Shown here: one piece after another, positions 9,876-64,000 of the stretch
Layout: the number at the start of each line of letters is the position of its first letter
Position numbering within the stretch: position 1 is the first letter of the stretch
DNA from: a virus
Taxonomy: Duplodnaviria > Heunggongvirae > Uroviricota > Caudoviricetes
Reading direction: 5' to 3' (one strand)
DNA: 64,000 nucleotides
IMG/VR virus record: IMGVR_UViG_3300045996_002451
Span: 147,172-211,171 of that record
Translations under genes and position numbers: made by a program
Notes under the pieces: model-generated
Seen by the model: only the letters and a program-made list of their open reading frames with translations
The model's database searches: none
What the model was told of the DNA's origin: nothing

Positions 9876-11363
9876 ATGCCTACACCTAACTCAGAACGCG
9901 CTATCTATCGGCCTCAACCCTCCGGGGGCGAGCGTTACTTGCCCGGTTGGCACATTGCTCGCACGGATCCGGACAGCCTGGTTTACCGCCTGGTACACCA
10001 ACTGGTCGATGAGTGTGTCCCGCTCCGAGAAGAGCAGGCGCGCGCGTATCAGATGAACTGGTTGACCACCGCGCCCGTGGATGAGCCGCGAACGCAGTGG
10101 ACGTGCGTCTATCCGTTTGACCCGCAAGATGAACTGACCGTGACGGTGACGACCGCCGCCGATCTCGAGATCGAGGTGCGTGCCGCGCTGAGCGATCACG
10201 ACTTTGTGCGGGCGACCGATCCGGTCTGGAAGCTGGACACCCCGCAAGGGCGCCTGGTTTTTCGTAACCTGGCCACGGTGGAAAAGGAGCTGACCTCCGT
10301 CACCACCAGCTACACCGTAACCGGAGAAGCTTCGGGACTGGTCGCTGACGCTAATCTATACTGGCAGGGACAGACGGATGATCCCTGGCAAGTCCTATCG
10401 GCAGACAGTTCCTTGCGGGACGGGGTGACCTTTACCTTGCCGGTCACCGGCGTCATCTCGGTGCGTTACCAGTCCCAGGCACGCTACGCTGACCTGGTCT
10501 CGGGCACGGTGCTCTTAGAGCGTCGCAGCAGCCGCACGGTGCCGTTGCCGCTTACCGTGGAGCCGCTCCTGAACCTCTTCGATGGCTGGGGGTCGATCCT
10601 CGGGATCCCCCGCCTGCCGGATGAGGACAACGTCGCGTACAAAGCACGGCTGCTCGCGGAAGCGGAAGCGCCGCCTAACTCCACGGAGACAGGGGTGATT
10701 CGGGGCATCGCCTCGCGTCTGGGGTTGCTTTCGCGCACCTACTGGAACGGGATCGACGAACTCGAGTTCTCTGAAGAGGAGGTCACCGCGGTCCACCTGG
10801 TCGGTGTGGACATGTTCTTCGGGGTCACCGAGCAGCTTACGCCGGAGCCGCGGGAAAGCGTCACCGAACCGGTAGACACCTACTACGCGTCCTACACGGA
10901 CTGGCGGGAAGGGTGGTACGTCTATGTCGACGGCGTGCCCGCACAGGGCGTGACCGTTTCGGGTAACGTCGTTACACTAGGGGAAGAGACCAGTGGGGTG
11001 GTGACCGCGGCCTACACCGTCGCGCGGTACCAGTTGGAGCGCGACGCGGAAGATTACATCCTCAGCGTGCAGCCAGGTCAAGGCCTGCCGCCCGGTAACT
11101 ACGTGGTCCTTTACTCCCGCCAGGTCCTGGTCCATGGGCTGGGTGCGGAGACCGTGCAGGATGCGCTGCTCCTGACCGCAGCCGGGCTGCCGAATGAACT
11201 CTTCCTAGAGCTGCACCGTACCCTGGCGAGTGGGAGTACCACGTCGCTGGGAAGGGCGGGTTGGGAAACTGCGTATTGGTTTGCTTCCCCGGAAGAGACG
11301 CCGGGGACTACTCAGGTGGCGTTGCCGTTTGACGCGCACCTGACATTGGGTGATGATGAGTAA
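9876..11363 (+). CDS. Tail fibre protein 2, a paralogue of fibre 1.
   Basis: It shares blocks with fibre 1: 'LNLFDGWGSILGIPRLPDEDNVAYKARLLA', 'REGWYVYVDGVP...VSGNVVTLG' and 'GRAGWETAYWFASPEE'. Confidence 0.5.
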   Translation: MPTPNSERAIYRPQPSGGERYLPGWHIARTDPDSLVYRLVHQLVDECVPLREEQARAYQMNWLTTAPVDEPRTQWTCVYPFDPQDELTVTVTTAADLEIEVRAALSDHDFVRATDPVWKLDTPQGRLVFRNLATVEKELTSVTTSYTVTGEASGLVADANLYWQGQTDDPWQVLSADSSLRDGVTFTLPVTGVISVRYQSQARYADLVSGTVLLERRSSRTVPLPLTVEPLLNLFDGWGSILGIPRLPDEDNVAYKARLLAEAEAPPNSTETGVIRGIASRLGLLSRTYWNGIDELEFSEEEVTAVHLVGVDMFFGVTEQLTPEPRESVTEPVDTYYASYTDWREGWYVYVDGVPAQGVTVSGNVVTLGEETSGVVTAAYTVARYQLERDAEDYILSVQPGQGLPPGNYVVLYSRQVLVHGLGAETVQDALLLTAAGLPNELFLELHRTLASGSTTSLGRAGWETAYWFASPEETPGTTQVALPFDAHLTLGDDE

Positions 11364-35546: not shown

Positions 35547-36569
35547 TTGCCACCTGCTGTTGCCTCCTCCCCGTTGCGTATCGGTCAGCCCGGGGGAAAC
35601 ATTTTTGACGCGCTAGAGACGAGTTGGTATCTGCGTGACTTCCACGACCGCGGTCTGCAGGTCACGGAGCCCCACTGGAACTTCGGCCAGTTCGAGAAGC
35701 TCGGAGCGTCCCTTCCCCAGCTCCGTGCCGGGATCTGGTACCACATTGCCCCGGAGAACGTGGGTAAGTCCATGTGGATGATCAACCTGGCGTGGCAGAT
35801 CCTGCAGAACAACGAGAACTGTTACTGGCTCGATTTCTCGCTGGATGACAGCAAGGACATGCGCTACAGCTACATCCTGGCGCGCACCGGGGAGATGCCG
35901 ATCGGACTAACCCTCCGGGCCGGAGATGCGTCGCTGGAGGACCGCCAACTGCGCACTTCGGAGATCGGGAAGTTCGCCAAGAACTGGTCCACGCGCCACA
36001 AGGTCTTTGCTACCTATCGTCAGAAGGACGGTCAGCCGGTAGAACCGCCGCGCCACGCGGAGCGGATCATCGACTGCATCAAGGAAGCCCGCAAGCAGAT
36101 CGGTCCGGACGCCAAGCTATGGGTCACCATCGACGGGTTCCACGACATTCGCCTGGAAGCCCGCGCCCAGGACGAAAACGAGCGTCAGCGCATCAAGAGC
36201 CAGATGTTCAAGGATGCGGCTCCGATGTACGACGCCATGATCATGATGAGCGCGCACTGCCGCAAGGACAGTCGCCGCCGTGGTATGAACGCCGACTCTT
36301 TCAAGGGGGATGACTCGGTGCTCTACGACGCGGTCGTCGTTACCACGGTTTACTCCGACGTGAACCTGAACCGCGAAGCCGCCGAACTCTCCTGGCAGCA
36401 GGAAGGTTCCGAGCGCAAGCTGCCGGTCCACGAGATCGATATCCAGAAGAACAAAGCGGGCGGGAACAAGGACGTTCTCTTCTACAACTTCCTGCCAGAA
36501 CGCTGCTGGGACTTCGAAGTAGACGAGGCTACCCAGACCTTCTACCGCAGCCTACTCTTCGGAGGTTAA
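35547..36569 (+). CDS. RecA-superfamily P-loop ATPase (DnaB-C / AAA_25-like), a putative replication helicase or loader.
   Basis: Walker A-like 'APENVGKS' and Walker B-like 'LWVTIDGFHD'. TTG start with ACGGAG upstream. Confidence 0.4.
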   Translation: MPPAVASSPLRIGQPGGNIFDALETSWYLRDFHDRGLQVTEPHWNFGQFEKLGASLPQLRAGIWYHIAPENVGKSMWMINLAWQILQNNENCYWLDFSLDDSKDMRYSYILARTGEMPIGLTLRAGDASLEDRQLRTSEIGKFAKNWSTRHKVFATYRQKDGQPVEPPRHAERIIDCIKEARKQIGPDAKLWVTIDGFHDIRLEARAQDENERQRIKSQMFKDAAPMYDAMIMMSAHCRKDSRRRGMNADSFKGDDSVLYDAVVVTTVYSDVNLNREAAELSWQQEGSERKLPVHEIDIQKNKAGGNKDVLFYNFLPERCWDFEVDEATQTFYRSLLFGG

Positions 36570-46626: not shown

Positions 46627-46657
46627 AAGGTCACCTGGAAACGGGTGACCTTTTTTA
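46627..46657 (+). terminator. Rho-independent terminator upstream of the sigma factor gene.
   Basis: AAGGTCACC-tggaaacg-GGTGACCTT followed by TTTTTT. Confidence 0.6.
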
Positions 46658-46662
46658 ACGCT

Positions 46663-47289
46663 ATGGAACCTAAAAGCTGTGCCGATCAGTCCAGCGCTTT
46701 AACCGAGAGTATCGCGCGTTACCAAGCTGGAGACTCGCAGGCGGCTGCCGAGCTGCTCACGTCCTGCGAAGCTTATCTGAACCGCTGGTTCCGACTCCTG
46801 ATCCAGGGAACGTTCACCAAGAACGACACGGAGATCCGCCAGTTTCTAGGGCTGCTTAGCAGTGATCTGGAGCCCGCCCTGGCTGCCAAGAACCTGGCCC
46901 GCCAGTTGCGCTCCTATTCCTCAGCCGATCTACGGCAGGAGGTACGCGCGCTCTTTCTCCAGCTTGCTCTGGAACATGGTGAGATCTACGCGCACTTTCC
47001 GCACCAGCTCAAGGGACGCATCCACGTCCTCCTCGGCGATCCCCTCAACTATCAGGACGAGCTAGGGAACAGCACACCCTTCGGCGCACTGGACGAAGCT
47101 TGGGTACAGGGACAGTGTGGAAACGGGTTCTCGCAGCTTACAGAGCAGCAGAGACGTATTGTGCGCTGCTGCTTCTGGCACGCCTACCCGATTCCCCACA
47201 CGGCGCACATCTTAAAGCTCTCGGTGGAAGAGATCCAGCAAGAACTGGCCACTATCCGGAACGCGTTAAAAGACCTAAACCGACGTTAA
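46663..47289 (+). CDS. Sigma-70-family (ECF-like) sigma factor.
   Basis: Region-2-like 'SIARYQAGDSQAAAELL ... YLNRWFRLL' and region-4 HTH 'LTEQQRRIVRCCFWHAYPIPHTAHILKLSVEEIQQELATIRNALKDL'. The ATG at 46663 follows a terminator. Confidence 0.55.
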   Translation: MEPKSCADQSSALTESIARYQAGDSQAAAELLTSCEAYLNRWFRLLIQGTFTKNDTEIRQFLGLLSSDLEPALAAKNLARQLRSYSSADLRQEVRALFLQLALEHGEIYAHFPHQLKGRIHVLLGDPLNYQDELGNSTPFGALDEAWVQGQCGNGFSQLTEQQRRIVRCCFWHAYPIPHTAHILKLSVEEIQQELATIRNALKDLNRR

Positions 47290-50859: not shown

Positions 50860-51717
50860 TTAGCGCAGTTGAATGTTGGTGAACGGGATCCCGGGAGTAC
50901 CGACCCGCGGCACTTCGCCGCCCGCCTTCTTCCACTTCTCGATCGCCAGTTTGCGCAGCTCCAGCTTTTTGATCTTGATCGCAGTGCTGCCGCTCTGGGA
51001 ACCCAGCAACCGGTTTTGTTCGGCTTGCTGCTGGGCCTTGATCAGGATGGTCTGGGCTTCCTGCTCGGCACGCTTCTGCTCGGCCTGCGCGTTACCCAGT
51101 TCTTGCCGGGCTTCGAGGCGTTCCTTGATACGAGCTTCGATCTCATTGGGGCGCCGCATGTCCTGGATGTACAGGTTGTCCAGGGTAAAGCCGGACTCAC
51201 TCATCGATGCACGCAAGGCGGACTGAGCCTGGTCGCCGAAGAGGGCCTTCTTGTTGGCCACGATCTCGGCGAAACTCATCTTGGTGGCGGCGTTGACCAT
51301 CGCTTCCTGGGTAAAAACCAGAAGGATCTCGTGGAACTTGCTCATGTCCGCGGTGCCGAAGGTCTCAAAGACGCGCACGGCGTTGGACTTATCCACGTGA
51401 AACGCGACAGTGGTGTCCACCTCGATCGGGACACCCTCCTGGGTGACCACCACGATGGCGTCCCCTTCGGCGTCCGACTCGTCCACCTTCTTCTGGGCGA
51501 AGCTAACGTTGATCGTCTTGGTGGGGAAGTCCTCTACCCGCTCCTGGTCCAGCGGGTTGACGCTGACCACGCTCGGCTCGAGCGGTTGGGAGTTAATCCC
51601 GGTGCGCCCGTTGTACTTGATCCCCACATGGGAGGGCGGGATCTGGTGACAGCCGGAGGTGAACCCCAGGACGATCAGGGCGCCGAGCCCGCAGAGCACG
51701 TTTTTCCAGTTCTTCAT
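50860..51717 (-). CDS. SPFH / Band-7 (prohibitin / HflC-like) protein with a signal peptide and possible lipobox.
   Basis: N-terminal 'LCGLGALIVLGFTSGC'. The SPFH core is followed by a long Ala/Gln/Glu-rich coiled coil 'EARIKERLEARQELGNAQAEQKRAEQEAQ'. Confidence 0.6.
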   Translation of the reverse strand: MKNWKNVLCGLGALIVLGFTSGCHQIPPSHVGIKYNGRTGINSQPLEPSVVSVNPLDQERVEDFPTKTINVSFAQKKVDESDAEGDAIVVVTQEGVPIEVDTTVAFHVDKSNAVRVFETFGTADMSKFHEILLVFTQEAMVNAATKMSFAEIVANKKALFGDQAQSALRASMSESGFTLDNLYIQDMRRPNEIEARIKERLEARQELGNAQAEQKRAEQEAQTILIKAQQQAEQNRLLGSQSGSTAIKIKKLELRKLAIEKWKKAGGEVPRVGTPGIPFTNIQLR

Positions 51718-52640
51718 TAGTTTCCTCCCACGGCCACTGCGGCCTCGCCGACGACTACCGAGACGCCCTTACCACTGGGCACATCCGGGAAGCGCCCGTT
51801 CCAGGCGTCGATCGCCGCTTCGTCAATTTCCAAGCTCATCATTTCCAGCGAAGCGCTGTGGGTCTTCGTGGCGGTCATCTCCCGGGCCTTGGCCTGGGCG
51901 TTGGCGGTAATGAGCGCCGTCTTGCGCTCGATCTCCGCCTGCTCCTTGTGCGTCTTGGCGATCTCCGTACCGGTCATGATGTTGACCCGCTGGTTGATCT
52001 TGGTCTGCACGTTAGCATCCGGGTAGGGACGCAGGAAGAAGGCACGGTAGATGGTGATCCCCTTGCTCTCGAGTTTCTTCTTGAGGTTCAGGGTAAGCTT
52101 CTTGCCCGCGTCTTCCAGGGCCGGGGCGATTAACGTCTGCGCATCATACTCCGGACCGATGTCGTTCGCGGCATCCTGCAGCGCCCGGCGAATGTGCTGG
52201 CTCTGGATCGTCCGGATATCCGCTTTGCCGAAGTTGGCAAAGACGGTACCGAGCTTATCCGGATCGATGTGGTAAAGCACGCCGACATCAAAGAGAGTGG
52301 ACGCGGTGTCCGAGGTGGTGATGCGCACCGCGTCGGCCTGCTTCAGATCGCCGACCCGAGCATCCTGGGTGTAGAGGGCGAGCTGCGGCTTCGTGGGGAA
52401 CGTGTACAACTCATACATCGGCGCCACGTAGTGACGTCCGGGCTTGAAGATCTTCACGGTACCGTCCGGGTTGATCACCAGACCGTTCTTGGTGTTTGCG
52501 CCTGCACGGGCGCTGTACATCACCCCGACTTCACCGGCGTCTACCCGGGTCCCGGTGAAGAACCACACGCCCCAGACCACCACAATGACCGCCAAGGCGG
52601 CGATCAGGGCACATCCTACGTTGCTTGATTTACTGGACAT
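51717..52640 (-). CDS. SPFH / Band-7 (HflK-like) membrane protein.
   Basis: N-terminal TM 'CALIAALAVIVVVWGVWFF'. SPFH-type core with a C-terminal coiled coil 'EQAEIERKTALITANAQAKARE'. Confidence 0.6.
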   Translation of the reverse strand: MSSKSSNVGCALIAALAVIVVVWGVWFFTGTRVDAGEVGVMYSARAGANTKNGLVINPDGTVKIFKPGRHYVAPMYELYTFPTKPQLALYTQDARVGDLKQADAVRITTSDTASTLFDVGVLYHIDPDKLGTVFANFGKADIRTIQSQHIRRALQDAANDIGPEYDAQTLIAPALEDAGKKLTLNLKKKLESKGITIYRAFFLRPYPDANVQTKINQRVNIMTGTEIAKTHKEQAEIERKTALITANAQAKAREMTATKTHSASLEMMSLEIDEAAIDAWNGRFPDVPSGKGVSVVVGEAAVAVGGN

Positions 52641-52861
52641 TAGTTTCCTTTTCCGAACCGAGCTTGAAGGTCCTGCTCGATTTCTTGGTGTGCGCGCTGT
52701 TTCAACTCGGCGTCCAGCGCCGCGCGCTGACGTTTTTCCTCATCCTCTTGGGAGAGGCGCTGCCAGTCCTGCTTGATCCGTCTCCACACGCGCGCCGCGG
52801 TGAAGCCGAGCACTAAGCCCAGGATCAGCAGTAAAAACATGTTCAGCCAGATTGCTGTCAT
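52640..52861 (-). CDS. Small single-TM protein co-encoded with the SPFH pair, an NfeD-like accessory candidate.
   Basis: 'IWLNMFLLLILGLVLGF' TM segment then a charged coiled coil. ATGT/ATGA overlaps on both sides. Confidence 0.4.
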   Translation of the reverse strand: MTAIWLNMFLLLILGLVLGFTAARVWRRIKQDWQRLSQEDEEKRQRAALDAELKQRAHQEIEQDLQARFGKGN

Positions 52862-54510
52862 TCTTGGTCCTTGTGATTTCTCACCGCGTCCAGGAACGCG
52901 TTGAACAGGGGGTGCGCTGCCTCGAACTGACTCTTGTACTCGGGGTGGTACTGGACACCGACAAAGAAAGGATGCACGGATGGATCCAGCTCAACCGCAT
53001 CGTACGTATCTCGACCATTGTCCTTGGCCATCGCAGAGATGGTCAAGCCTCCCTCGATCAGTTTTGGCGCATACTCCGGGTTCAGTTGGTACCGGTGCCG
53101 GTAGCGCTCTTGCACGACTTCCCCTTCGATGTAGATCTCCTGAAGGCGCGTCCCGGACCCAAAGGCCACCGAGACGTTTCCCTTACGTAAGGCACCCCGA
53201 ATATCGGTGGAGGAGAAGCGTTGGATAACCACCGGATGCGGCGTCTTCGGATCGATCTCCGTACTGTTTGCCCCGGCCAGGGCCAGCACGTTTTGCGCGT
53301 ACTCGACCACCGCCATCTGGAACCCATAGCAGAGTCCCAGGTAAGGCAGCTTCTTTTCTCGCGCGTAACGGATCGCACGGATCTTACCGTCGGCGCCGCG
53401 GCTGCCCCACCCCTGCGGGATGATCACCCCGTCGCAGTACTTCATGGTGGTCTCGAAGCTTTCAGGATCTTGTTCGATCCCTTCCGCATCGATCCATTCT
53501 ACCAGGACCCGCACGCCGGTATGCGTCTCAGAGTGCTTCAGCGCCTCAATGACGGACACGTAGCTATCGGGAAGCTGGTAGTCGCCGGAACCGAGGTACT
53601 TGGCCACGATGCCGATGCGAACGGCGGCGCCCTCTCCGTTCAAGAGGAGATTGACCCGCTTCTTCCAGTTCGCTAACTTGGGCCGGGCAATGACCGTAAC
53701 CCCCAGGCGCTTCAGTAGTTTCTGCGCGAACTTCTGCTCTTCGAACAAGAGCGGCACCTGGTAGATGGTCTTCACGTCCGGGGCCAGGATGATCTCATCC
53801 TCACGCAGGTGCGTGTTGGCTGCGATCTTCTCCTTGCGCACCCCGTCTACCACGTACTTAGCGGCGGAACGAAGCACCAGGAAATCCGGCTGGATCCCCG
53901 CATCATAAAGCTGGCGAATGGAGAGCTGTACCGGTTTGCTCTTCATCTCGCCCAGGCTCTCGATGTACGGCAGGTACGCCACGTGAACGTGCGCCACCCG
54001 TCCGGGATGCTTCTTGGTCATCATCCGCGCAGCTTCCAGGAAGACCTGGATCTGGTACTCACCCACCGTGCCGCCAAACTCGCAGATGACGAAGTCGGCT
54101 TCATGGTGTTTCCCGCAGGCTTCCACGCGGCGGATGACCGCCTCGGGCACGTGGGGTACCATCTCCAAGGTCTTCCCGCCGAAGGCGTGGGAGCGCTCCT
54201 CATCCATGATCTCGCGAAGCACGCTGCCCATCGTGAGGTAGTTGTGGGCCGTCGTGTCTTCACCGATGAAGCGCTCGTAGTGTCCCAGGTCTTGGTCGGT
54301 CTCGAGCCCGTCCGAAGTGACAAACACTTCGCCGTGCTCCACCGGGTTCATCGTGCCTGCATCGCCATTCAAGTACGCGTCGGCTTTCATGCAAGCCACG
54401 GAATAACCGCGCGTCCGAAGTAGCGTGCCAAGGGAAGCAGCCACGATCCCCTTACCCAGACCGGAGATCACGCCTCCGGAAATGAAAATGTAACGTGTGT
54501 GGTTAGCCAT
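52858..54510 (-). CDS. pyrG: CTP synthase.
   Basis: N-terminal 'TRYIFISGGVISGLGKGI' is the canonical PyrG start. The GATase domain has 'LGLCYGFQMAVVEYA' and 'YHPEY'. 550 aa. Confidence 0.85.
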   Translation of the reverse strand: MANHTRYIFISGGVISGLGKGIVAASLGTLLRTRGYSVACMKADAYLNGDAGTMNPVEHGEVFVTSDGLETDQDLGHYERFIGEDTTAHNYLTMGSVLREIMDEERSHAFGGKTLEMVPHVPEAVIRRVEACGKHHEADFVICEFGGTVGEYQIQVFLEAARMMTKKHPGRVAHVHVAYLPYIESLGEMKSKPVQLSIRQLYDAGIQPDFLVLRSAAKYVVDGVRKEKIAANTHLREDEIILAPDVKTIYQVPLLFEEQKFAQKLLKRLGVTVIARPKLANWKKRVNLLLNGEGAAVRIGIVAKYLGSGDYQLPDSYVSVIEALKHSETHTGVRVLVEWIDAEGIEQDPESFETTMKYCDGVIIPQGWGSRGADGKIRAIRYAREKKLPYLGLCYGFQMAVVEYAQNVLALAGANSTEIDPKTPHPVVIQRFSSTDIRGALRKGNVSVAFGSGTRLQEIYIEGEVVQERYRHRYQLNPEYAPKLIEGGLTISAMAKDNGRDTYDAVELDPSVHPFFVGVQYHPEYKSQFEAAHPLFNAFLDAVRNHKDQE

Positions 54511-55298
54511 CAGTCCTCAAAGTCGTAAAGACGCACCAGTACTTCCGGTTCCGGTTCCGCTGCAGGGGGTTCTGGGTTGGGTGAGAACGCTCGAAGTTGG
54601 GCCGCTTCGGTGTAGTAGTTTCCGTTTCGGTTCTTAAGGCGTGCTTTTCTTAACGTTTCCAAACCGCTAAAGAAAATACGCAGCATGATTTGTTCCGGAG
54701 GAACGTTAGCCCAACGGCTGATCGAGGTCACCCGTTCCTGTACGGTGCGCCACGGCATATTGGGGTTTACGGCGTCCTGGAGTTCGTCGAGTACGCTATC
54801 GATCCGGTCTTCCCGCGTCTCCTCTCGGCGACTAAAGAGGGGAATAGAGGGGTCGACAGGGTTAAGGCCTTGGATGTAGTTCTCATAAAACCGCACCTGA
54901 TTAGCGCGCTCAACCTCCTGCATGCTGATACGTTTCTGCCTAACATCCGAGAAGTCGATGGCGGGTGGTGTGGGCTTGGCAGCGTTCTTCCAGTACTGAC
55001 CTAAATTTGGGAAACTGATTGCTTCTATCTTTTCCAACGAAGCTAATAAGCGATTCGCTTCGCCTCCGCCCGCGATACTCTCCGCGCGTGCAGCACCCGT
55101 CTCTCCAGACACTCCAGTTGGATCTGGAAGGGGTGTTGAAACTGGGTCTTGCGACACAACGCCTTGAGCTTCAGCTTCGCTTCCGTCAGGCTGGAAAGTG
55201 GACTTTCGACGAGCTTTTTCACGTAAACGGGGAAGCTTCCCTTTTCCACCTGACTTAGTTGGTTTGCCGCTACCAGTTCCATCTTTTGGATCGTCCAT
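54510..55298 (-). CDS. Hypothetical protein ending in 'VRLYDFED'. Start uncertain.
   Basis: C-terminal motif shared with the family. The listed start overlaps the 55043-55540 ORF. An alternative in-frame ATG lies at 54923. Confidence 0.35.
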   Translation of the reverse strand: MDDPKDGTGSGKPTKSGGKGKLPRLREKARRKSTFQPDGSEAEAQGVVSQDPVSTPLPDPTGVSGETGAARAESIAGGGEANRLLASLEKIEAISFPNLGQYWKNAAKPTPPAIDFSDVRQKRISMQEVERANQVRFYENYIQGLNPVDPSIPLFSRREETREDRIDSVLDELQDAVNPNMPWRTVQERVTSISRWANVPPEQIMLRIFFSGLETLRKARLKNRNGNYYTEAAQLRAFSPNPEPPAAEPEPEVLVRLYDFED

Positions 55299-55615: not shown

Positions 55616-56014
55616 CTACGATGGGATCGCGTCTTCCGGATCGTCAAAATCATACAGGCGTACTGGTGCTTGTTCTGGCTCCGGGGGCGTTACTGCTCGC
55701 TTCTGATTCTTAGGCATCCAACCTTTGTACGGCTTAGGCTCCGGAGGACTGATTTTGATAGGAATGGCTGCCATCTGAGCGATCAACTGGTCTTGCAGTT
55801 TTGTGTAATCTTTTTTCGAAGCACGCGCGGATCCCTGCTGAACTGTGCGTTCAGCTCTAAGCTTTTCCGCGACGCTTTGATCGTAGACCAGTTCAGTGCC
55901 TTCCCAATTAAGGGGTACTAAACAGATGCGGCAGTAAGAAGGTTGCTCAGCTATTTTCAAGCGGGTGTAACAAACCGGGCAACCCGTCGTCTTAGAGATG
56001 TCTAGGCTTGGCAT
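55616..56014 (-). CDS. N-terminal zinc-ribbon protein with C-terminal 'VRLYDFDDPEDAIPS'.
   Basis: 'CPVC ... CRIC' plus the shared terminal motif. Confidence 0.45.
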   Translation of the reverse strand: MPSLDISKTTGCPVCYTRLKIAEQPSYCRICLVPLNWEGTELVYDQSVAEKLRAERTVQQGSARASKKDYTKLQDQLIAQMAAIPIKISPPEPKPYKGWMPKNQKRAVTPPEPEQAPVRLYDFDDPEDAIPS

Positions 56015-56838
56015 GGTACGCTAAAGAACTCCCGCTGAGGCAGCATCACCGCGGTCAGTAGACCGCCGTAGCAACTTCCGGTATCGATCCCAATCTTTTC
56101 CGGACGGTTCAAAGGCTTCCAGCTATCTTTCATCCCAGGTTGCCAGATACCACTCTGCACCTCCGTGGACTGCGGCGTGTGTCCGAAGATCACCGGCTTG
56201 TCCAGACGATGCTTGGTGTCGTAGATCCATTCGTCCCGGATCCAGAGCTTCTGAAAACGGCTGCACTGGCCGGGACGCTTCCCCGGCTGGAAACCGGCGT
56301 GCACGTAGTAACCGTGCTCGTCCTCATAGTCCAGCTTCAGGGAAGCAAACCAGTTCATCAAATCTTGGCCCAGCAGGGAGGTGATCCCTTCCGCGGCCAC
56401 GCCGAGAAATACCTTTTCCAGCAGTTTCAAGGTGACTGCGCGGCGTCCACCTGCGACATCGATCAGGCGCGCAAACTCCACCGGACCCAGGAAGCTTTTC
56501 ATCGCTTCGACGCCGCCGTTGCTTTCCCAGAGACCCGCATCGTAGAGTCTATGTCCACCCTGTTCCACCCGCAGGTGATCCAGCAGCATGTCCTCATGGT
56601 TGCCGATTAAGGTCACCACGGGTCCGGGCCAATAAGCCTGGCACTCTTTGGCCACTCCCCATTCCTGCAGCTCCTGCACGATGCGGATCACACCCCGACT
56701 GTCGGGGCCCCGGTCGATGTAGTCGCCTACAAAGACCAGGGTATCCCCTTCTTCAGCCAGGGGCTCGATCTGCGCCAGCAACTGCTGCAAAGGTTCGGCA
56801 AAGCCGTGTACATCACCGATCGCAAAGGTTTTACTCAT
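56002..56838 (-). CDS. Ser/Thr protein phosphatase (PPP-family metallophosphoesterase, lambda-PPase / ApaH-like).
   Basis: 'GDVHG', 'GDYIDRG' and 'GNHE' metallophosphatase motifs. Confidence 0.75.
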   Translation of the reverse strand: MSKTFAIGDVHGFAEPLQQLLAQIEPLAEEGDTLVFVGDYIDRGPDSRGVIRIVQELQEWGVAKECQAYWPGPVVTLIGNHEDMLLDHLRVEQGGHRLYDAGLWESNGGVEAMKSFLGPVEFARLIDVAGGRRAVTLKLLEKVFLGVAAEGITSLLGQDLMNWFASLKLDYEDEHGYYVHAGFQPGKRPGQCSRFQKLWIRDEWIYDTKHRLDKPVIFGHTPQSTEVQSGIWQPGMKDSWKPLNRPEKIGIDTGSCYGGLLTAVMLPQREFFSVPCQA

Positions 56839-57808: not shown

Positions 57809-59383
57809 TTACTCCGGCTCGGCACTGCCTTCGAGGATGCGCGCCTGGGTCTTAGGATACAGGGCGTACCACTTCTTAAGCAAGCGTCGATAGTCGTTGG
57901 CGTATTTGTACAGCGCCCCTACGCCCGTGCGCAGCTCGCACTCGTAGAGGAACTTGTCTGCTGTGGTGCCGTGCTCGTAGCTACTCTCCGCGCCCAACAC
58001 CAACCAGTAGACATAGGTAGAGTACCCTTGCGTCAGCAGGTTCAACGCCGTACGCGTCATCGTCCGCCCGATCTCCGCAAGCGCTTCTAGCTGTTTGCGT
58101 TCCTCCTGGGCCCAGCTCGGCAACTCATCCTCGGCCCAGTAGAAACCGACCGGGATCAGCGGCGCGAACTTGTACCCCGTACGGTGCCGGTTCATGTCCC
58201 GCAGACAAGCGAAGTCTACGGCTCCGATCGAAAAGCGTACAAAGGTACGCCGCAGCCAGGCCCCTACCCAGGCATACCGGTTCTCGTGGAACTCCAGGTC
58301 CTGGTAGAACTCCCCGTCGAAGAAGTTGCGTTCTTCTTGGTGCCCGTAGAACGTGTGCTCTGTTTCAGGACACCAGACGGCCAGGTGAACCGGCGAAGTC
58401 GCACTGGAACGGGTGATCGGAAGCGTCTCATTCAGGAAGGTCTGCCCGATCCCGGTATAGGAAGTCTGCCGCGCGGCCTTGAACTCCTGCTCGAAGCCTT
58501 GGGTCCAGTACGCCTTGGCCACGGCGTGCTTGACCAGTCGCGGGGTAACCAGCTCCAGTTCTTCCCGCAGCAGCTTGCCTAGCGCCTGGCCTTCGGACAG
58601 CGGTTGAGACAGCAGCTTCTGGATCAACTCGGTCCAGCCGCGGGCGTTCATGACCAGCATCACGTTGGTCTGTACGGCAGCCGGGATGAAGCAGCGTGCC
58701 CGGTCGAAGGCGTAGTTGCGCTTCAGCCGTTCCAGCTTGAGCCGGGCTTTTTCGTCGGTCTTGGCTTCTTCGATGAGTGAACTGGGGATCTTGGCGACGG
58801 TGGGATCCTTTTCGAAGATTCCGGACCAGAGCGCGTACGCCTGATTGTAGGCGTCAAACGCGAGCGCGGTCTGCTGCGTCCATTCAGGGGCGTCCACTAC
58901 GCCTAGCGCCTCTGCCGAAGGTAAGCCTTCCGCGGAGAACTTGCAGTAGCGCGTGCTCGTCTCCTGTCCGGAGGCCGTCGGCACCTGACTCCAGATCCAG
59001 TAGACCAGGTAGACCGAGACGTTGTCGAGGAACATCGCGACTGGCGCCATGTCCGCAATCGAGGCATGGCCGTAGTCCACCATCTTGAAGATGGAGTCGA
59101 CCCCTTTGTCCGGGTTGCCGGGGCGATAATTGTTCGCTACGGTGTGGAAGCGTTCGTAATCGTCATCCCATTCCGCACGGTGGCTTTCTGCCACGAGCGT
59201 AAGGAACTTCTCGAGGGTTTCCTGCTTGTTACCAAGATCAATCTTTTCGAGGATCGCCTCCAAGCCCTCTCCATTGCGACTGTAGCGCGCGCCGGTGGCA
59301 GCTAGTTCTTCGGCGGTCAGGGCAACCTTCCCCGCGGCCAGCGCGGCTTCAGTGGGCTTTAGGGCGACGTATGTAACTTTCAT
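57809..59383 (-). CDS. Tandem-domain flavin-dependent thymidylate synthase (ThyX)-like protein.
   Basis: 'ARCFIPAAVQTNVMLVMNARGWTELI' matches the ThyX AR..LP...T...N.R motif. The first half has 'ETSTRY' without RHR. The second half has 'NRHRTGYKF'. 524 aa is about twice ThyX length. Confidence 0.45.
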   Translation of the reverse strand: MKVTYVALKPTEAALAAGKVALTAEELAATGARYSRNGEGLEAILEKIDLGNKQETLEKFLTLVAESHRAEWDDDYERFHTVANNYRPGNPDKGVDSIFKMVDYGHASIADMAPVAMFLDNVSVYLVYWIWSQVPTASGQETSTRYCKFSAEGLPSAEALGVVDAPEWTQQTALAFDAYNQAYALWSGIFEKDPTVAKIPSSLIEEAKTDEKARLKLERLKRNYAFDRARCFIPAAVQTNVMLVMNARGWTELIQKLLSQPLSEGQALGKLLREELELVTPRLVKHAVAKAYWTQGFEQEFKAARQTSYTGIGQTFLNETLPITRSSATSPVHLAVWCPETEHTFYGHQEERNFFDGEFYQDLEFHENRYAWVGAWLRRTFVRFSIGAVDFACLRDMNRHRTGYKFAPLIPVGFYWAEDELPSWAQEERKQLEALAEIGRTMTRTALNLLTQGYSTYVYWLVLGAESSYEHGTTADKFLYECELRTGVGALYKYANDYRRLLKKWYALYPKTQARILEGSAEPE

Positions 59384-61380: not shown

Positions 61381-61785
61381 TCAGGTTTTCTTACGCGGAA
61401 CGATGGTGACACGTCCCTCTTTATCGGAAGCATCAAACGCTTCCAAGGCCTCTAACTGCAACCGCTCGTAAACGGAGATCTTCTCTAGGCCTAGATTCGA
61501 CGTCTTCCTATTGCCTACATAACGGCGCATCGCGTTTACCAGCTTATCCAGTACAGCGGTAGGAAGCTGCGTCATCTGGTTCTTTTTACGGTTCGCCAAC
61601 TCAACTTCCGCCTGTTGGATCAACGTGGTGATCTCCCCGTCTTCCAGATCCTCCAGATTAAACGCCAGGGAGTTTTCGTCTGCAAACGGATCATAACCGT
61701 AGATACGGGTGTTCGAGTTGGGAGGGGGAGTGTCTTGCGACGCAGGATCATCTTCTCCCAAAAAATCGTACATACGCTCAGACAA
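61381..61785 (-). CDS. Hypothetical protein with an N-terminal 'RMYDFLGEDDP' motif.
   Basis: Terminal motif family. Also an internal 'RIYGYDPFADE'. Confidence 0.4.
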   Translation of the reverse strand: MSERMYDFLGEDDPASQDTPPPNSNTRIYGYDPFADENSLAFNLEDLEDGEITTLIQQAEVELANRKKNQMTQLPTAVLDKLVNAMRRYVGNRKTSNLGLEKISVYERLQLEALEAFDASDKEGRVTIVPRKKT

Positions 61786-61803: not shown

Positions 61804-62220
61804 TTACGTCGATTCCTCGAAGTCGTAGAGACGAGGACGCTTTTCCGTCATGGTGTAGTACCGGGTCTCGGCGGTGTGCGTGGTTGCAGGCGCCGCGGTC
61901 ATTTCTGGTAACGGTTGCCCAGCCTTTAAGTAGACGACCTCTCGGTCAATCAGGTCTCCGAACTCCGACTCCCAACCCAGCACTTCGGGAGCTACCGTAA
62001 CAAAGTCGCGCTTCATGCGGTCCATGACAAAGGTGTTGTGCATCCGCAGGGCCTCGTCCACGGTGCCGAAGCAGCTCTGCATCGAGGTAGAGAGGTGTTT
62101 AAGCGTACCCCAATGCGTGCGAAAGTAGTAACGCTTTCCTTGCTTGAGGACCCTGGAGACAAAGGCTTCCTTTTTAGACCCCTTGGTGCGGAGCAGGTAG
62201 ACAGAGGCAATGACACTCAT
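61804..62220 (-). CDS. Hypothetical protein ending in 'RLYDFEEST'.
   Basis: C-terminal motif family. Confidence 0.4.
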   Translation of the reverse strand: MSVIASVYLLRTKGSKKEAFVSRVLKQGKRYYFRTHWGTLKHLSTSMQSCFGTVDEALRMHNTFVMDRMKRDFVTVAPEVLGWESEFGDLIDREVVYLKAGQPLPEMTAAPATTHTAETRYYTMTEKRPRLYDFEEST

Positions 62221-62221
62221 T

Positions 62222-62521
62222 TTAACCTACCTGTTCCAGATCGGCGAGTAGCTGCGCGGCAGTCTTGATCCCGTAGATAGAGATCGGTGACCAGATACCT
62301 TGGACCTCGTACGGAAAGAACCCTTGCCGGAGTACGTACTGTTCGGGATCGGCGTAGCGCGTCAGTGCTGCGTGCAGTCGATTGAAGAGCGGACGCTCGA
62401 TTACAATCGGTGTCTTGCGGCGCTGTGCCACGAACTCCAGCAGTTCTTCATCCGTGTACTGGTTCAGGGGATGCTGGTGCGAATTGGGAAGCGCATCAAA
62501 ATCATAAGCTCGTGCAGACAT
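62222..62521 (-). CDS. Hypothetical protein with N-terminal 'MSARAYDFD'.
   Basis: Its ATG overlaps the stop of the upstream gene (TGATG). No Cys. Confidence 0.4.
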   Translation of the reverse strand: MSARAYDFDALPNSHQHPLNQYTDEELLEFVAQRRKTPIVIERPLFNRLHAALTRYADPEQYVLRQGFFPYEVQGIWSPISIYGIKTAAQLLADLEQVG

Positions 62522-62796
62522 CACTCTTCTCCGAAACTATAGACCCGGTTGATGTTGCTGGAAACGGTGGGTCCGCTCACGAGCAACGCGTCCGATCTAG
62601 CGAGGATGGCATGCCGGGGGCAGTAATCCTTTTTGTTGGGCTTGTCGTAGACCCAGCCCTGCTTTTCCAGCGCCTGTCGGGCCACACCCGGCGTGAACTG
62701 CTCATGGTTAAAGAGCGGAGTCGGCATCTGGCAGGCGTCGCAGCAGACGTTGAAGTGTTTAGCTGCTGGACCTTTTCCTCCGCGCCTAGTAATCAT
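62521..62796 (-). CDS. Small zinc-ribbon protein, paralogue E, ending in 'NRVYSFGEE'.
   Basis: 'CCDAC ... GWVYD ... DYCPRH'. Alignable with paralogues A-D. Confidence 0.45.
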   Translation of the reverse strand: MITRRGGKGPAAKHFNVCCDACQMPTPLFNHEQFTPGVARQALEKQGWVYDKPNKKDYCPRHAILARSDALLVSGPTVSSNINRVYSFGEE

Positions 62797-62798
62797 CT

Positions 62799-63134
62799 TC
62801 ACTCCTCAAAATCGTAAACCCGGTTGGGTGACTCAGTCTCTCCGAGCTGATCCGTTTTGTAGCGCAAGTCCACCACGATACCTGCGTCTTCGAGCGCTGA
62901 CTTGGCAATGGCCAGATCGATACGCAGTTGCGTGACCAGACAGCGTGGACAGCTAGGTCCACGGCGACTAGACCCAGGAAGCGGGACATCCCAGCCGCGG
63001 ATCGTCAACTCTTCGCGTAACTCGGCATCGTCCAGCTCGAACGCGGTCTTCCAATTGATCTTTACGTTACAAAACTCACAGCCCACGTCATAAAGCCAAC
63101 TGGAGGACATCTGGGTCTTTCTGAGGTACCGCAT
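62799..63134 (-). CDS. Small zinc-ribbon protein, paralogue D, ending in 'NRVYDFEE'.
   Basis: 'WLYDVGCEFCN ... LTIRGW ... SCPRC'. Confidence 0.45.
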   Translation of the reverse strand: MRYLRKTQMSSSWLYDVGCEFCNVKINWKTAFELDDAELREELTIRGWDVPLPGSSRRGPSCPRCLVTQLRIDLAIAKSALEDAGIVVDLRYKTDQLGETESPNRVYDFEE

Positions 63135-63139
63135 GTGCG

Positions 63140-63421
63140 TTAGTCCTCGAAGTCGTAGATGCGCGTGGGCGAGGTCTTAGCGATGAAGCCCTGGGTGATC
63201 CGATCCTGGCAAACGGGACAGACGTCCATGATCGTATTGGTCTTCTCGTGGATCTCGGTCGTCCAGCCTTCGCTTTTGGCGAGCGCTCGAACCTTGGACT
63301 CCAGACCTGCGCCGCGGGAAAAAGCGGCTCGAAACGCGGTATGGCATCCCGGCACGTTACAGCCAAGGTAATACACCACGAGTTTACTTTCCGCTTCTTT
63401 ACCCCAAGCTGTATCGATCAT
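63140..63421 (-). CDS. Small zinc-ribbon protein, paralogue C, ending in 'TRIYDFED'.
   Basis: 'YYLGCNVPGCH ... LAKSEGW ... DVCPVCQ'. Confidence 0.45.
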   Translation of the reverse strand: MIDTAWGKEAESKLVVYYLGCNVPGCHTAFRAAFSRGAGLESKVRALAKSEGWTTEIHEKTNTIMDVCPVCQDRITQGFIAKTSPTRIYDFED

Positions 63422-63696
63422 TAGGGATCCTCGAAGCTGTAGACGCGGTTGCTCTCTTTTTCAGCTTTTGGTTGGGCTACATCTGTAAGCGCGCACTGTT
63501 CGCAATAGTCCATGCTGGTGACCAAATCAGGTCTAGCGTAGCAGACCCAACCGTGCTTAGCAGAAAGCTCCCGTAAACCTACTGGGTTGTTGTAACCGTC
63601 AAAGCAACCCAGACGCAGTGCCCGCACACACCGATATCCAGAGCAGTAAAGGTAGTACCACGACCAACTGCCCCTGTCCTTAAAGATGTGGAACAT
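63421..63696 (-). CDS. Small zinc-ribbon protein, paralogue B, ending in 'NRVYSFEDP'.
   Basis: 'YYLYCSGYRC ... LSAKHGW ... DYCEQC'. TAATG overlap with paralogue C. Confidence 0.45.
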   Translation of the reverse strand: MFHIFKDRGSWSWYYLYCSGYRCVRALRLGCFDGYNNPVGLRELSAKHGWVCYARPDLVTSMDYCEQCALTDVAQPKAEKESNRVYSFEDP

Positions 63697-63698
63697 GA

Positions 63699-64000
63699 CT
63701 ACTCCTCAAAGCTGTAGATCCGGTTTTGAAGGGTTGGTTCTGGGGATGGCGGTGCTTGTTCGACCTGACATGCCGGACAGACGTCTTTTACATTCATATT
63801 TACAGGCGTAGCAACACTACTACGCCACGACACGCTAAAGTTATCCCAATTGTAGCGTCTCTTTACTTCTGCTCTTAGTTTCGCTCGATCGCTAATAGAG
63901 AGCACGAGATCTCTTTGTACGAGAGCTACCGCATGGTGACACCCGTGAATGTCACAATGAACGAAGTACAGGTACGTGTTACGGTTACTGTCACCTAAGT
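63699..64000 (-). CDS. Small zinc-ribbon protein, paralogue A, ending in 'NRIYSFEE'. Its 5' end is cut by the window edge.
   Basis: The in-frame upstream translation to the window edge gives 'YLYFVHCDIHGCHH ... VKRRYNW ... DVCPACQ', which is the same architecture. The listed GTG start is therefore probably internal. Confidence 0.4.
   Translation of the reverse strand, partial: LGDSNRNTYLYFVHCDIHGCHHAVALVQRDLVLSISDRAKLRAEVKRRYNWDNFSVSWRSSVATPVNMNVKDVCPACQVEQAPPSPEPTLQNRIYSFEE

What the first reader, a model, noticed from the sequence alone, without database searches (positions are those of the whole stretch)
62521..64000. Tandem array of at least six paralogous small zinc-ribbon proteins with a conserved C-terminal NR[VI]Y[SD]FE[ED] tail
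Five complete genes (62521-62796, 62799-63134, 63140-63421, 63421-63696, 63699-63905+) and the upstream continuation to the window edge share one architecture. That architecture is an aromatic residue followed by G-C-x2-4-C, then about 25 aa, then L-x-x-x-G-W, then D-x-C-P-x-C, then a tail ending NRVY[SD]FE[ED]. The genes overlap or abut each other (TAATG, TGATG). A multi-copy family of metal-binding mini-proteins at the far end of the early arm looks like a diversified host-takeover or anti-defence repertoire. I do not recognise the family.
Basis: seen in the sequence. Interest (0 to 1): 0.85.

Follow-up and report, generated by a model that had tools for sequence, protein, structure and literature searches.

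The report
Shared docking tail on phage mini-proteins
Five tandem genes for small zinc-finger proteins in an uncultured large phage are real paralogues. Their conserved tail, however, is a portable address tag also carried by at least five unrelated neighbouring proteins, which suggests many phage proteins plug into one still-unknown partner.

Summary
The array is real but misdescribed. On the minus strand there are five zinc-finger paralogues, not six; the "sixth" is the N-terminal half of the fifth gene. They stay mutually detectable with the tail removed (leave-one-out HMM E 6e-6 to 2e-15). They have no Pfam, NCBIfam or solved-structure relative; tail-less cousins occur in other phages.

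The tail R-[VIL]-Y-[DS]-F-[EDG]-[ED] is not specific to this family. A related regex hits 10 times in the six-frame translation. All hits are on the minus strand and within 9 residues of a protein terminus (8 C-terminal, 2 N-terminal), against 0.04 expected. Five carriers are unrelated proteins.

R, Y and F codons are fixed at positions 1-2 and free at position 3, so selection acts on the protein. Related phage contigs carry the same tail on eight proteins, including a Cdc48-like AAA ATPase and a DUF3150-like protein. Across 80 viral contigs a looser tail, R-x-h-x-h-acidic, is enriched 2.8-fold at C-termini (p=2e-28).

Best reading: a terminal docking peptide that tethers varied proteins to one receptor, with the zinc fingers as interchangeable heads. 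The receptor is unidentified.

The parts
63699..64000 (-). Zinc-finger paralogue 5, which runs off the window (at least 99 aa seen). Cys pair CDIHGC, then SW after an insertion, then DVCPAC. Tail is QNRIYSFEE* (motif at 63708-63722).
   Evidence: Leave-one-out HMM E 6.3e-6.
63421..63696 (-). Zinc-finger paralogue 4 (91 aa, identical to database protein P0001). CSGYRC ... GW ... DYCEQC. Tail is SNRVYSFEDP* (63433-63447). Its stop overlaps the next start (TAATG).
   Evidence: Leave-one-out E 4.7e-11.
63140..63421 (-). Zinc-finger paralogue 3 (93 aa, identical to P0002). CNVPGC ... GW ... DVCPVC. Tail is PTRIYDFED* (63149-63163). This copy was modelled: fold beta-beta-alpha-beta-beta-alpha, with the second Cys pair at the start of the last helix (treble-clef-like) and a disordered tail.
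   Evidence: AF2 pLDDT 81 overall, core >90, last 14 residues 57-65. Leave-one-out E 2.4e-15.
62799..63134 (-). Zinc-finger paralogue 2 (111 aa from the first ATG; the source database calls it 103 aa from MSSSW, P0003). CEFC ... GW ... SCPRC, with a longer linker. Tail is PNRVYDFEE* (62808-62822). The GAGGAG codons of its FEE sit 5 nt upstream of the next ATG.
   Evidence: Leave-one-out E 1.1e-9.
62521..62802 (-). Zinc-finger paralogue 1 (93 aa). CCDAC ... GW ... DYCPRH (Cys3His). Tail is INRVYSFGEE* (62533-62547). The database call of 68 aa (P0004) starts after the first Cys pair and is probably too short.
   Evidence: Leave-one-out E 4.3e-12. Closest relative is P0006 in L009 (E 2e-17).
62222..62524 (-). 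Unrelated 100-aa protein with the motif at its N-terminus: MMSARAYDFDALP (62498-62512).
   Evidence: No family hit.
61804..62220 (-). Unrelated 138-aa protein with a C-terminal tail RPRLYDFEEST* (61819-61833).
   Evidence: No family hit.
61381..61785 (-). Unrelated 134-aa protein with the motif at its N-terminus, MSERMYDFLGEDD (61762-61776). A second motif-like stretch, TRIYGYDPF, lies within an acidic, probably disordered N-terminal region.
   Evidence: No family hit.
55616..56014 (-). 132-aa protein with a different N-terminal CxxC...CxxC pair, a P/E-rich linker and the tail APVRLYDFDDPEDAIPS* (55646-55660). Its C-terminal part matches L006 18807-19232 (tail VRLYDFEEDAV*), which occupies a comparable place in the syntenic block, so that gene is the probable counterpart.
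54510..55298 (-). 262-aa protein of unknown family. P/E-rich linker and tail EVLVRLYDFED* (54519-54533). It lies directly upstream of the CTP synthase gene.

Best explanation
The conserved tail is a short linear docking peptide: R-x-aromatic-x-Phe followed by acidic residues, held on a flexible Pro/Glu-rich linker at either protein terminus. Many otherwise unrelated non-structural proteins of this phage use it to bind one common receptor. The alternating R-x-h-x-h pattern suggests it binds as an added beta-strand.

The five tandem genes encode a fast-diverging family of about 70-residue Cys4/Cys3His zinc-finger heads. These heads would recognise different ligands and are all delivered to, or regulated by, that same receptor through the tail.

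The window's R[VIL]Y[DS]FE[ED] is the local dialect of an older, widespread phage tail, R-x-[ILV]-x-[LVF]-acidic. That older tail is found on a DUF3150-like protein, on a Cdc48-like double-ring AAA ATPase and on a few accessory proteins of the same replication/recombination gene block. In this clade the tag changed dialect and spread to about a third of the block.

Shown: the motif, its terminal position, protein-level selection, its presence on unrelated folds, its conservation in relatives, and the homology of the heads.

Inferred: that it binds a receptor; that there is one receptor; that the receptor is phage-encoded and belongs to the AAA/DUF3150 module (my preferred guess, about 35%); and that the heads act as adaptors.
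For: - Motif statistics: 10 regex hits in six frames, all on the minus strand and all within 9 residues of a terminus, against 0.038 expected.
- Five carriers are not zinc-finger paralogues and have no detectable similarity to them or to each other.
- Codon analysis of 24 tails: R, Y and F codons are invariant at positions 1-2 but carry 0.8-1.5 bits of entropy at position 3.
- Linkers before the tail are P/E-rich. The tail is low-confidence and unstructured in both AF2 models.
- The syntenic relative L006 has 8 tail-bearing proteins, including an AAA ATPase, a DUF3150-like protein and 3 zinc-finger paralogues. L008 and L009 also carry it.
- Negative controls: 851 kb around ThyX-like homologues has no convincing terminal tail. 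IMG/VR and one-genome-per-species scans for PVRLYDF[DE] return only internal or chance hits.
- Deep roots: the tail Arg is >=90% conserved in 117 AAA homologues. 61 of 120 end in R-x-h-x-h, against 7% of random windows.
- In L152 and L154 the same kind of tail sits on the AAA, the DUF3150-like protein, a YqaJ exonuclease, Ku and small ORFs.
- In 80 IMG/VR loci the C-terminal enrichment is 2.8-fold (p=2e-28), against 1.4-fold in control loci. The DUF3150-like protein carries it in 51 of 67 loci.
- Tails of non-homologous proteins are more alike within a genome than between genomes (permutation p=0.015).
Against: - No receptor was identified, and binding is entirely inferred.
- The AAA tail and the DUF3150-like tail of the same genome do not clearly co-vary (p=0.05-0.34), so they may not share a receptor.
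- AF2 of the AAA monomer does not dock its own tail.
- Whether the window's own phage encodes the AAA/DUF3150 module is unknown. That region would lie beyond position 64000. No AAA homologue from the 211-kb source contig appeared among the 120 listed of 809 hits.
- The loose R-x-h-x-h regex has a 2% background, so individual calls in distant loci may be chance.
- The acidic pair of the tail also encodes the Shine-Dalgarno sequence of the next gene, which contributes to its conservation in the array.
Confidence: 0.6

Rival explanations
1. The tail is a degron or processing tag. A protease or unfoldase (phage Cdc48-like AAA, or host ClpXP/Lon/HslUV) recognises the terminal peptide to remove or cleave a whole class of early proteins at a set time.
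For: - The position at either terminus on a flexible linker is typical of degrons.
- A Cdc48/p97-like unfoldase is the most conserved neighbour of tail-bearing genes.
- In 18 of 61 AAA homologues the motif ends exactly at the C-terminus, resembling C-terminal recognition signals.
Against: - The unfoldase itself and conserved enzymes (YqaJ exonuclease, Ku) carry the tail, which is odd for a destruction signal.
- The motif resembles no known bacterial degron, judged from memory and not tested.
- Genome-specific dialects fit a co-evolving phage receptor better than a conserved host protease.
Confidence: 0.13
2. The receptor is the phage's own PPP-family phosphatase (window 56002-56838). The tail would be an analogue of the eukaryotic PP1 'RVxF' ([KR][KR][VI]x[FW]) or calcineurin 'PxIxIT' docking motifs. 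Tail-bearing proteins would be targeting subunits or substrates, and the zinc-finger array a set of alternative targeting subunits.
For: - The ancestral form of the tail (RKITV, RRITFDE, RAISFEED, RSLSF) fits [KR]-x-[VI]-x-[FLV] with an acidic flank.
- The window and L006 both encode a phosphatase with GDxHG / GDxxDRG / GNHE motifs in the same gene block.
Against: - No phosphatase homologue lies within 10 kb of the AAA gene in any of 80 IMG/VR loci that carry the tails.
- The window dialect has Tyr where PP1 ligands need Val or Ile.
- Whether bacterial-type PPP enzymes have an RVxF groove was not tested.
- NCBIfam places the enzyme nearer ApaH/PrpA/Pnkp than PP1.
Confidence: 0.08
3. The tail is a virion- or compartment-targeting peptide that loads a set of proteins into the capsid for injection, or into an intracellular phage compartment. 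The models are the capsid targeting sequence of T4 internal proteins and encapsulin cargo-loading peptides.
For: - Many unrelated small proteins share one short terminal tag on a flexible linker, at either the N- or C-terminus.
- The source is a 211-kb phage. From memory, large phages often package internal proteins.
Against: - The carriers lie in the nucleotide-metabolism/replication block on the strand opposite to the structural genes.
- The same kind of tail occurs in phage contigs of about 60 kb, on replication/repair enzymes.
- There is no similarity to known targeting peptides and no cleavage motif.
Confidence: 0.07
4. One reading: the tail is simply a conserved C-terminal part of one paralogous family of independent host-takeover or anti-defence mini-proteins, with no common partner.
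For: - Tandem, fast-diverging small genes are typical of phage counter-defence loci.
- Tail-less homologues open an early-looking operon in an actinophage-like contig.
Against: - The tail occurs on five non-homologous proteins here, and on an AAA ATPase and a DUF3150-like protein in relatives.
- The domain exists without the tail in other phages.
Confidence: 0.07
5. The conservation is at nucleic-acid level (translational coupling, Shine-Dalgarno, recombination junction), and the peptide itself is irrelevant.
For: In the array, the GAGGAG/GAGGAT codons of FEE/FED lie 5-9 nt upstream of the next start codon.
Against: - Third codon positions of R, Y and F vary freely while positions 1-2 are invariant.
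- Ser is encoded by AGY and Asp by GAY at the same site.
- Tails occur where the next gene is 45-65 nt away, at N-termini, and with 2-12 extra residues after the motif.
Confidence: 0.03

Closest known systems
PP1 RVxF / calcineurin PxIxIT docking motifs (eukaryotic PPP phosphatases)
   Same: A 5-residue basic-x-hydrophobic-x-aromatic peptide with an acidic flank, sitting in disordered regions of many unrelated proteins and binding one hub. A PPP-family phosphatase is encoded in the same gene block.
   Different: Eukaryotic system. The window dialect has Tyr at the Val/Ile position. The phosphatase is absent near the tails in 80 other phage loci. No binding evidence exists.
Capsid targeting sequence of T4 internal proteins (IPI, IPII, IPIII, Alt); knowledge from memory
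   Same: Unrelated small phage proteins, some of them anti-defence, share one short terminal address peptide and vary rapidly otherwise.
   Different: The T4 sequence is N-terminal and is cleaved by the prohead protease, and its genes are linked to head morphogenesis. Here the tag is mostly C-terminal, sits in the replication/nucleotide-metabolism block, and shows no sequence similarity.
Shared C-terminal docking tails of proteasome activators (HbYX; mycobacterial Mpa and Bpa 'GQYL') and the HslU C-terminal tail on HslV; knowledge from memory
   Same: An AAA unfoldase and non-ATPase proteins carry the same C-terminal peptide to dock on one ring-shaped partner. The phage AAA is Cdc48-like, and in many homologues the motif is the very C-terminus.
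   Different: In the window the motif is followed by 2-9 residues or sits at the N-terminus, so a free carboxylate cannot be required. No peptidase partner was identified.
Sliding-clamp binding motifs (bacterial QL[SD]LF, T4/RB69 C-terminal peptides, PIP box); knowledge from memory
   Same: A short hydrophobic/aromatic peptide at either the N- or C-terminus of many replication/repair proteins. Carriers elsewhere include Ku and an exonuclease.
   Different: The pattern differs: an invariant Arg replaces Gln, and the hydrophobic spacing is different. No clamp gene was seen in the available sequence.
Uncharacterised small proteins of actinobacteriophages (Microbacterium phage Teamocil A0A649VWN2, Arthrobacter phage Melons, Mycobacterium phage Barnyard Q856A1) and tail-less metagenomic homologues P0008-P0015
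   Same: The same small fold and ligand pattern, C..C ... R..L...GW ... DYCP.[CH].
   Different: They lack the tail, and similarity is weak (Foldseek E 3e-3 to 1e-2, TM about 0.5; HMM E 1e-4 to 8e-4). None has a known function.
Papillomavirus E7 (analogy only)
   Same: A small viral zinc-binding domain with two Cys pairs, joined to a short linear motif that docks on a hub protein. Weak Foldseek hits to E7.
   Different: The hits are not significant (probability 0.2-0.5). E7 has a different motif (LxCxE) at the other end of the protein, and infects a different domain of life.

Membership tests
Zinc ribbon / treble-clef Cys4 zinc finger | Two pairs of Cys/His ligands conserved across members | tested here: met
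   Both Cys of the first pair and the first Cys of the second pair are invariant in the 8 tail-bearing members. C21 and C68 are also invariant across all 14 sequences including tail-less relatives. The fourth ligand is Cys, or His in 62521-62802, P0008, P0014 and P0015.
Zinc ribbon / treble-clef Cys4 zinc finger | Ligand pairs sit on a beta-hairpin knuckle and on a second knuckle or helix start | tested here: met
   In the AF2 model (pLDDT 81) the first pair lies in the loop between strands 14-20 and 29-35. The second pair lies at the end of strand 63-67 and the start of helix 69-76, which is a treble-clef-like arrangement rather than a classical two-hairpin ribbon.
Zinc ribbon / treble-clef Cys4 zinc finger | Actual metal binding | not testable with these tools
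   Needs purified protein (ICP-MS or PAR assay).
Any curated protein family (Pfam, PHROGs, NCBIfam) or solved structure | Significant profile or fold match | tested here: not met
Bacterial beta-clamp binding motif | Consensus Q-L-[SD]-L-F or Q-x-x-L-x-F | tested here: not met
   All 22 aligned tails have an invariant R, Y and F in the pattern R-x-Y-x-F and no Gln. The consensus itself is taken from memory.
PP1-type RVxF docking motif | [KR]-[KR]-[VI]-x-[FW] in a disordered region | tested here: inconclusive
   Tails in distant relatives fit (RRITF, RKITV, RAISF). The window tails have Tyr at the V/I position.
PP1-type RVxF docking motif | Co-occurrence with, and binding to, a PPP phosphatase | tested here: inconclusive
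   The phosphatase is present in the window and in L006. It is absent within 10 kb in 80 other tail-bearing loci. Binding is not testable here.
HbYX / C-terminal activator tails; DegS-activating YxF-COOH | Motif must be the extreme C-terminus with a free carboxylate | tested here: not met
   Window tails are followed by 2-9 residues, and two are N-terminal.
T4-type capsid targeting sequence | N-terminal peptide removed by the prohead protease; genes tied to head assembly | tested here: not met
   8 of 10 tails are C-terminal. The genes lie in the nucleotide-metabolism/replication block on the strand opposite to the structural genes. Cleavage is not testable here.
Short linear motif (SLiM) in the general sense | 3-10 conserved residues in a disordered segment, recurring on unrelated proteins, under protein-level selection | tested here: met

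The most novel reading that the evidence does not exclude
A previously unnoticed and widespread phage 'address code': a C-terminal R-x-h-x-h-acidic peptide wires a Cdc48-like double-ring AAA unfoldase, a DUF3150-like protein and fast-evolving accessory proteins to one receptor. In this clade the code switched dialect to R-h-Y-D-F-E-E and spread to about a third of the non-structural genes. It now includes a tandem array of zinc-finger heads that would work as exchangeable substrate or target adaptors. That would amount to a modular, reprogrammable delivery system in a bacterial virus, comparable in logic to p97 cofactors or PP1 holoenzymes.
Probability: 0.3. Interest if true: 0.85.

Novelty: new variant of a known kind. 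Interest (0 to 1): 0.7.

Why it matters
Hub-and-motif wiring is well known in eukaryotic viruses and cells. In phages it is documented for only a few cases, such as clamp-binding peptides and the T4 capsid targeting sequence.

Here one genome shows ten proteins, and a relative eight, carrying the same terminal tag. The tag has a traceable ancestry in hundreds of uncultured phages. This gives a direct experimental handle: a 7-residue peptide with three invariant residues can be used as bait to find the receptor. In one step that could assign a working context to a block of genes that currently have no annotation: the zinc-finger family, the DUF3150-like protein and the Cdc48-like ATPase.

If the zinc fingers are interchangeable adaptors, the array would be a natural library of target-recognition modules.

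Tried and rejected
- DNA similarity of 58-64 kb to 50,697 phage records: no match.
- Exact-protein look-ups to extend the source contig beyond 64000: not on record.
- IMG/VR search with one paralogue: nothing.
- Word-indexed protein searches with the family profiles found almost only the window's own proteins. Only the exhaustive HMM search found relatives.
- The metagenome locus search with the zinc-finger alignment failed for lack of a conserved stretch. It returned mostly bacterial contexts without tails, which served only as a negative control.
- The tail-only profile could not be searched because the E-value ceiling is 10.
- Scans for the PVRLYDF[DE] coding pattern in IMG/VR and in one genome per species gave only chance or internal hits. 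One archaeal C-terminal hit is a spurious ORF overlapping a SUI1-like gene.
- Literature searches on jumbo-phage C-terminal motifs, 'YDF motif', DUF1257/DUF2997, DUF3150 and Ycf46 gave no relevant description. The cohesin-binding 'YDF motif' and the OMP YxF-DegS motif are analogies only.
- AF2 of the AAA ATPase did not dock its own tail.
- Lineage-specific substitutions in the AAA of the YxF-dialect clade are scattered and uninformative.
- Co-variation between the AAA tail and the DUF3150-like tail within genomes was not significant.
- Tunturiibacter phage Tunturi_3, the only cultured phage with an AAA homologue, is too distant (37% identity) and its tails are too weak to be useful.
Full report
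**What is in the sequence.** The genes of the finding lie on the minus strand: 62521-62802 (93 aa), 62799-63134 (111 aa), 63140-63421 (93 aa), 63421-63696 (91 aa) and 63699 to beyond 64000. Translating 63699-63998 in frame gives one uninterrupted protein. There are therefore five paralogues, the last cut by the window edge. The junctions TAATG and TGATG are as described.

**The paralogy is real.** The five proteins align with an invariant Cys, Arg, Trp and Cys, plus R, Y and F of the tail, at 15-30% pairwise identity. To separate the domain from the tail, I removed the tails and ran a leave-one-out test. HMMs built from the other family members recover each window copy at E 6e-6 to 2e-15. No hit appears among 694 decoy ORFs of the window.

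**The zinc-finger head is an unrecognised family.**
- Pfam and NCBIfam give nothing above threshold. PHROGs gives only marginal hits to families of unknown function.
- An exhaustive HMM search of 1.84 billion representative proteins found only 15 hits at E<1e-3.
- Four of those are the window's own proteins, on a JGI contig of 211,171 bp.
- Three are head-plus-tail proteins from related phages (P0005, P0006, P0007).
- Six are tail-less proteins with the same core, C..C ... R..L...GW ... DYCP.[CH]. One of these opens an operon in an actinophage-like contig.
- An AF2 model of the 63140-63421 product (14-sequence alignment, pLDDT 81, core >90) has the fold beta-beta-alpha-beta-beta-alpha.
- In that model the first Cys pair sits in a hairpin and the second at the start of a helix. 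This is a treble-clef-like arrangement. The last 14 residues are of low confidence.
- Foldseek against viral models finds uncharacterised small proteins of actinophages at E 3e-3 to 1e-2.

**The tail is not a family feature.** A regex for [RK][VILMA]Y[DSE]F over the six-frame translation of the whole window gives 10 matches. All are on the minus strand between 54.5 and 64 kb, and all lie within 9 residues of a protein terminus.
- Eight are C-terminal: the five zinc fingers plus 61804-62220, 55616-56014 and 54510-55298.
- Two are N-terminal: 62222-62524 and 61381-61785.
- Residue shuffling of the 26 minus-strand proteins predicts 0.038 matches.
- The five extra carriers have no family hits and no similarity to the zinc fingers or to one another.
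- The tail is usually preceded by a Pro/Glu-rich stretch.

**Selection acts on the peptide, not the RNA.**
- In 24 tails from the window and its relatives, the R, Y and F codons have zero entropy at positions 1-2 and 0.8-1.5 bits at position 3.
- The fourth residue switches between GAY (Asp) and AGY (Ser).
- The GAGGAG/GAGGAT codons of FEE/FED do double as the Shine-Dalgarno sequence of the next cistron inside the array.
- That dual coding cannot explain R-x-Y-x-F, the N-terminal copies, or tails followed by long spacers.

**Relatives carry the same tail.**
- P0005 lies on a 45-kb JGI contig (L006, GC 63%).
- L006 is syntenic with the window: a zinc-finger array, homologues of the 219-aa and 115-aa window proteins, a ThyX-like gene (50% identity), a PPP phosphatase and DUF2325.
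- Upstream, where the window ends, L006 continues with a DUF3150-like gene, an AAA ATPase, a RecA-like gene and a UvrD helicase.
- Eight L006 proteins end in R-x-Y-D-F.
  - These include the AAA ATPase (ARGYDFTEE*) and the DUF3150-like protein (NRVYDFEDEDV*).
  - They also include three zinc-finger paralogues and the probable counterpart of window gene 55616-56014.
- Two short Logan contigs (L008, L009) show further tandem zinc-finger-plus-tail genes.

**Negative controls show the tail is confined to this lineage.**
- 851 kb of loci around ThyX-like homologues contain no convincing terminal tail.
- Exact-pattern scans for PVRLYDF[DE] in IMG/VR (4 hits) and in one genome per prokaryotic species (55 hits, about the number I estimated from pattern degeneracy and collection size) gave only internal or spurious matches.
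- The Y-D-F dialect is therefore confined to a small, rarely sampled phage lineage.

**The tail has deep roots.**
- The L006 AAA ATPase has more than 800 homologues.
- Its AAA domain is closest to p97/Cdc48/VAT.
- Its AF2 model (pLDDT 93.6) aligns along its full length with the D1-D2 tandem of Cdc48, p97 and Rix7. Its last 15 residues or so are disordered.
- In 117 aligned homologues the tail Arg is at least 90% conserved.
- 61 of 120 end in R-x-[ILVFYMW]-x-[ILVFYMW] within the last 14 residues, against 7% of random windows.
- In two distant phage contigs the same kind of tail sits on several unrelated proteins.
  - L152: the AAA, a 328-aa protein, a 107-aa protein and a YqaJ exonuclease.
  - L154: the AAA, a 161-aa protein, the DUF3150-like protein, Ku and a 93-aa protein.
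- In 80 IMG/VR loci around AAA homologues, a stricter C-terminal pattern occurs in 6.5% of genes against 2.3% of internal windows. That is a 2.8-fold enrichment (p=2e-28). Control loci show 1.4-fold.
- The DUF3150-like protein carries the tail in 51 of 67 loci.
- Tails of non-homologous proteins are slightly more alike within a genome than between genomes (p=0.015). The AAA and DUF3150-like tails do not clearly co-vary.

**Interpretation.** The simplest account is a short linear docking motif.
- It is a flexible, terminal, protein-level-conserved peptide that recurs on unrelated folds.
- It is old, and it shows genome-specific dialects.
- Such peptides normally bind a groove on a common partner. 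The alternating R-x-h-x-h pattern fits strand addition.
- The zinc fingers would then be diverged heads that share one delivery or regulation route.

**Candidate receptors.** I could not identify the receptor.
- A component of the conserved AAA/DUF3150 module is my preferred guess.
- A host or phage ring-shaped peptidase is possible, by analogy with HbYX, GQYL and HslU tails.
- The phage PPP phosphatase is possible. The ancestral tail resembles PP1 RVxF, but the phosphatase is absent near the tails in 80 other loci.
- A clamp-like hub is possible.
- Degron and packaging-signal readings remain possible.
- A purely nucleic-acid explanation is essentially excluded.

**Context and limits.**
- The window is part of a large tailed phage. 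It encodes baseplate J, beta-helix fibres, glycosyltransferases, a dCMP deaminase, a sigma-70 region-4 protein, RecU, two SPFH proteins, a CTP synthase and a long ThyX-like protein.
- Its host is unknown. An AAA homologue in Tunturiibacter phage Tunturi_3 and names given to some homologues (Armatimonadota, Myxococcota) hint at soil bacteria.
- Nothing here bears on expression timing, metal binding or phenotype.
- The presence of the AAA/DUF3150 module in the window's own genome is inferred only from synteny with L006.

Noticed in passing
window 57809-59383 (-): A ThyX-like protein of 524 aa, about twice the usual length. The Thy1 domain covers only residues 92-281. It has more than 100 homologues at 35-48% identity in soil, peat and freshwater metagenome contigs, several of which look bacterial rather than viral in the few inspected.
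   Followed up: partly
window 50860-51717, 51717-52640 and 52640-52861 (-): Two adjacent SPFH/Band-7 proteins (an HflK/HflC-like pair) plus a 73-aa membrane protein, encoded by a phage next to a full-length CTP synthase (52858-54510).
   Followed up: no
window 56002-56838 (-): A PPP-family metallophosphatase (GDxHG, GDxxDRG, GNHE). NCBIfam places it nearest ApaH/PrpA/Pnkp phosphatases. It is conserved at 50% identity in L006. I considered it as a possible receptor of the tails, but it is not found near the tails in other phages.
   Followed up: partly
window 3784-4974 (+) and 11350-14100 (+): A glycosyltransferase ending in a SEC-C zinc motif, and a 916-aa protein with both GT1 and GT2 domains, both lying among tail and baseplate genes.
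   Followed up: no
window 46645-47289 (+): A 214-aa protein with a sigma-70 region-4 domain, possibly a phage sigma factor.
   Followed up: no
window 62799-62822, 63140-63163, 63421-63447, 63699-63722 (-): The acidic pair of each tail is encoded as GAGGAG, GAGGAT or GAGGAC, 5-9 nt upstream of the next gene's ATG. The tail codons therefore also provide the ribosome-binding site of the next cistron.
   Followed up: partly
window 61381-61785 (-), N-terminal 50 residues: Besides RMYDF at residues 4-8, there is a second motif-like stretch, TRIYGYDPF, in an acidic low-complexity region. This may be a double docking site.
   Followed up: no
window 35547-36569 (+): A plus-strand 340-aa protein ends in ...ERCWDFEVDEATQTFYRSLLFGG, a motif-like R-x-W-D-F-E 17 residues from the end. 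This may be chance.
   Followed up: no
L006 1095-1774; L152 12088-12601; L154 12016-12567: DUF1257-like and DUF2997-like small genes (the latter with His-rich ends in L152 and L154) consistently accompany the Cdc48-like AAA ATPase and the DUF3150-like gene. Together they form an uncharacterised conserved module in many uncultured phages.
   Followed up: partly
L154 15879-16721: A phage-encoded Ku protein carries the genome's tail dialect (KRKITLDEE) just before its Lys-rich C-terminus.
   Followed up: no
window 62521-62802 and 62799-63134: The gene calls of the source database (P0004 at 68 aa, P0003 at 103 aa) start downstream of the ORF starts. The 68-aa call would delete the first Cys pair, so it is probably a mis-called start.
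   Followed up: partly
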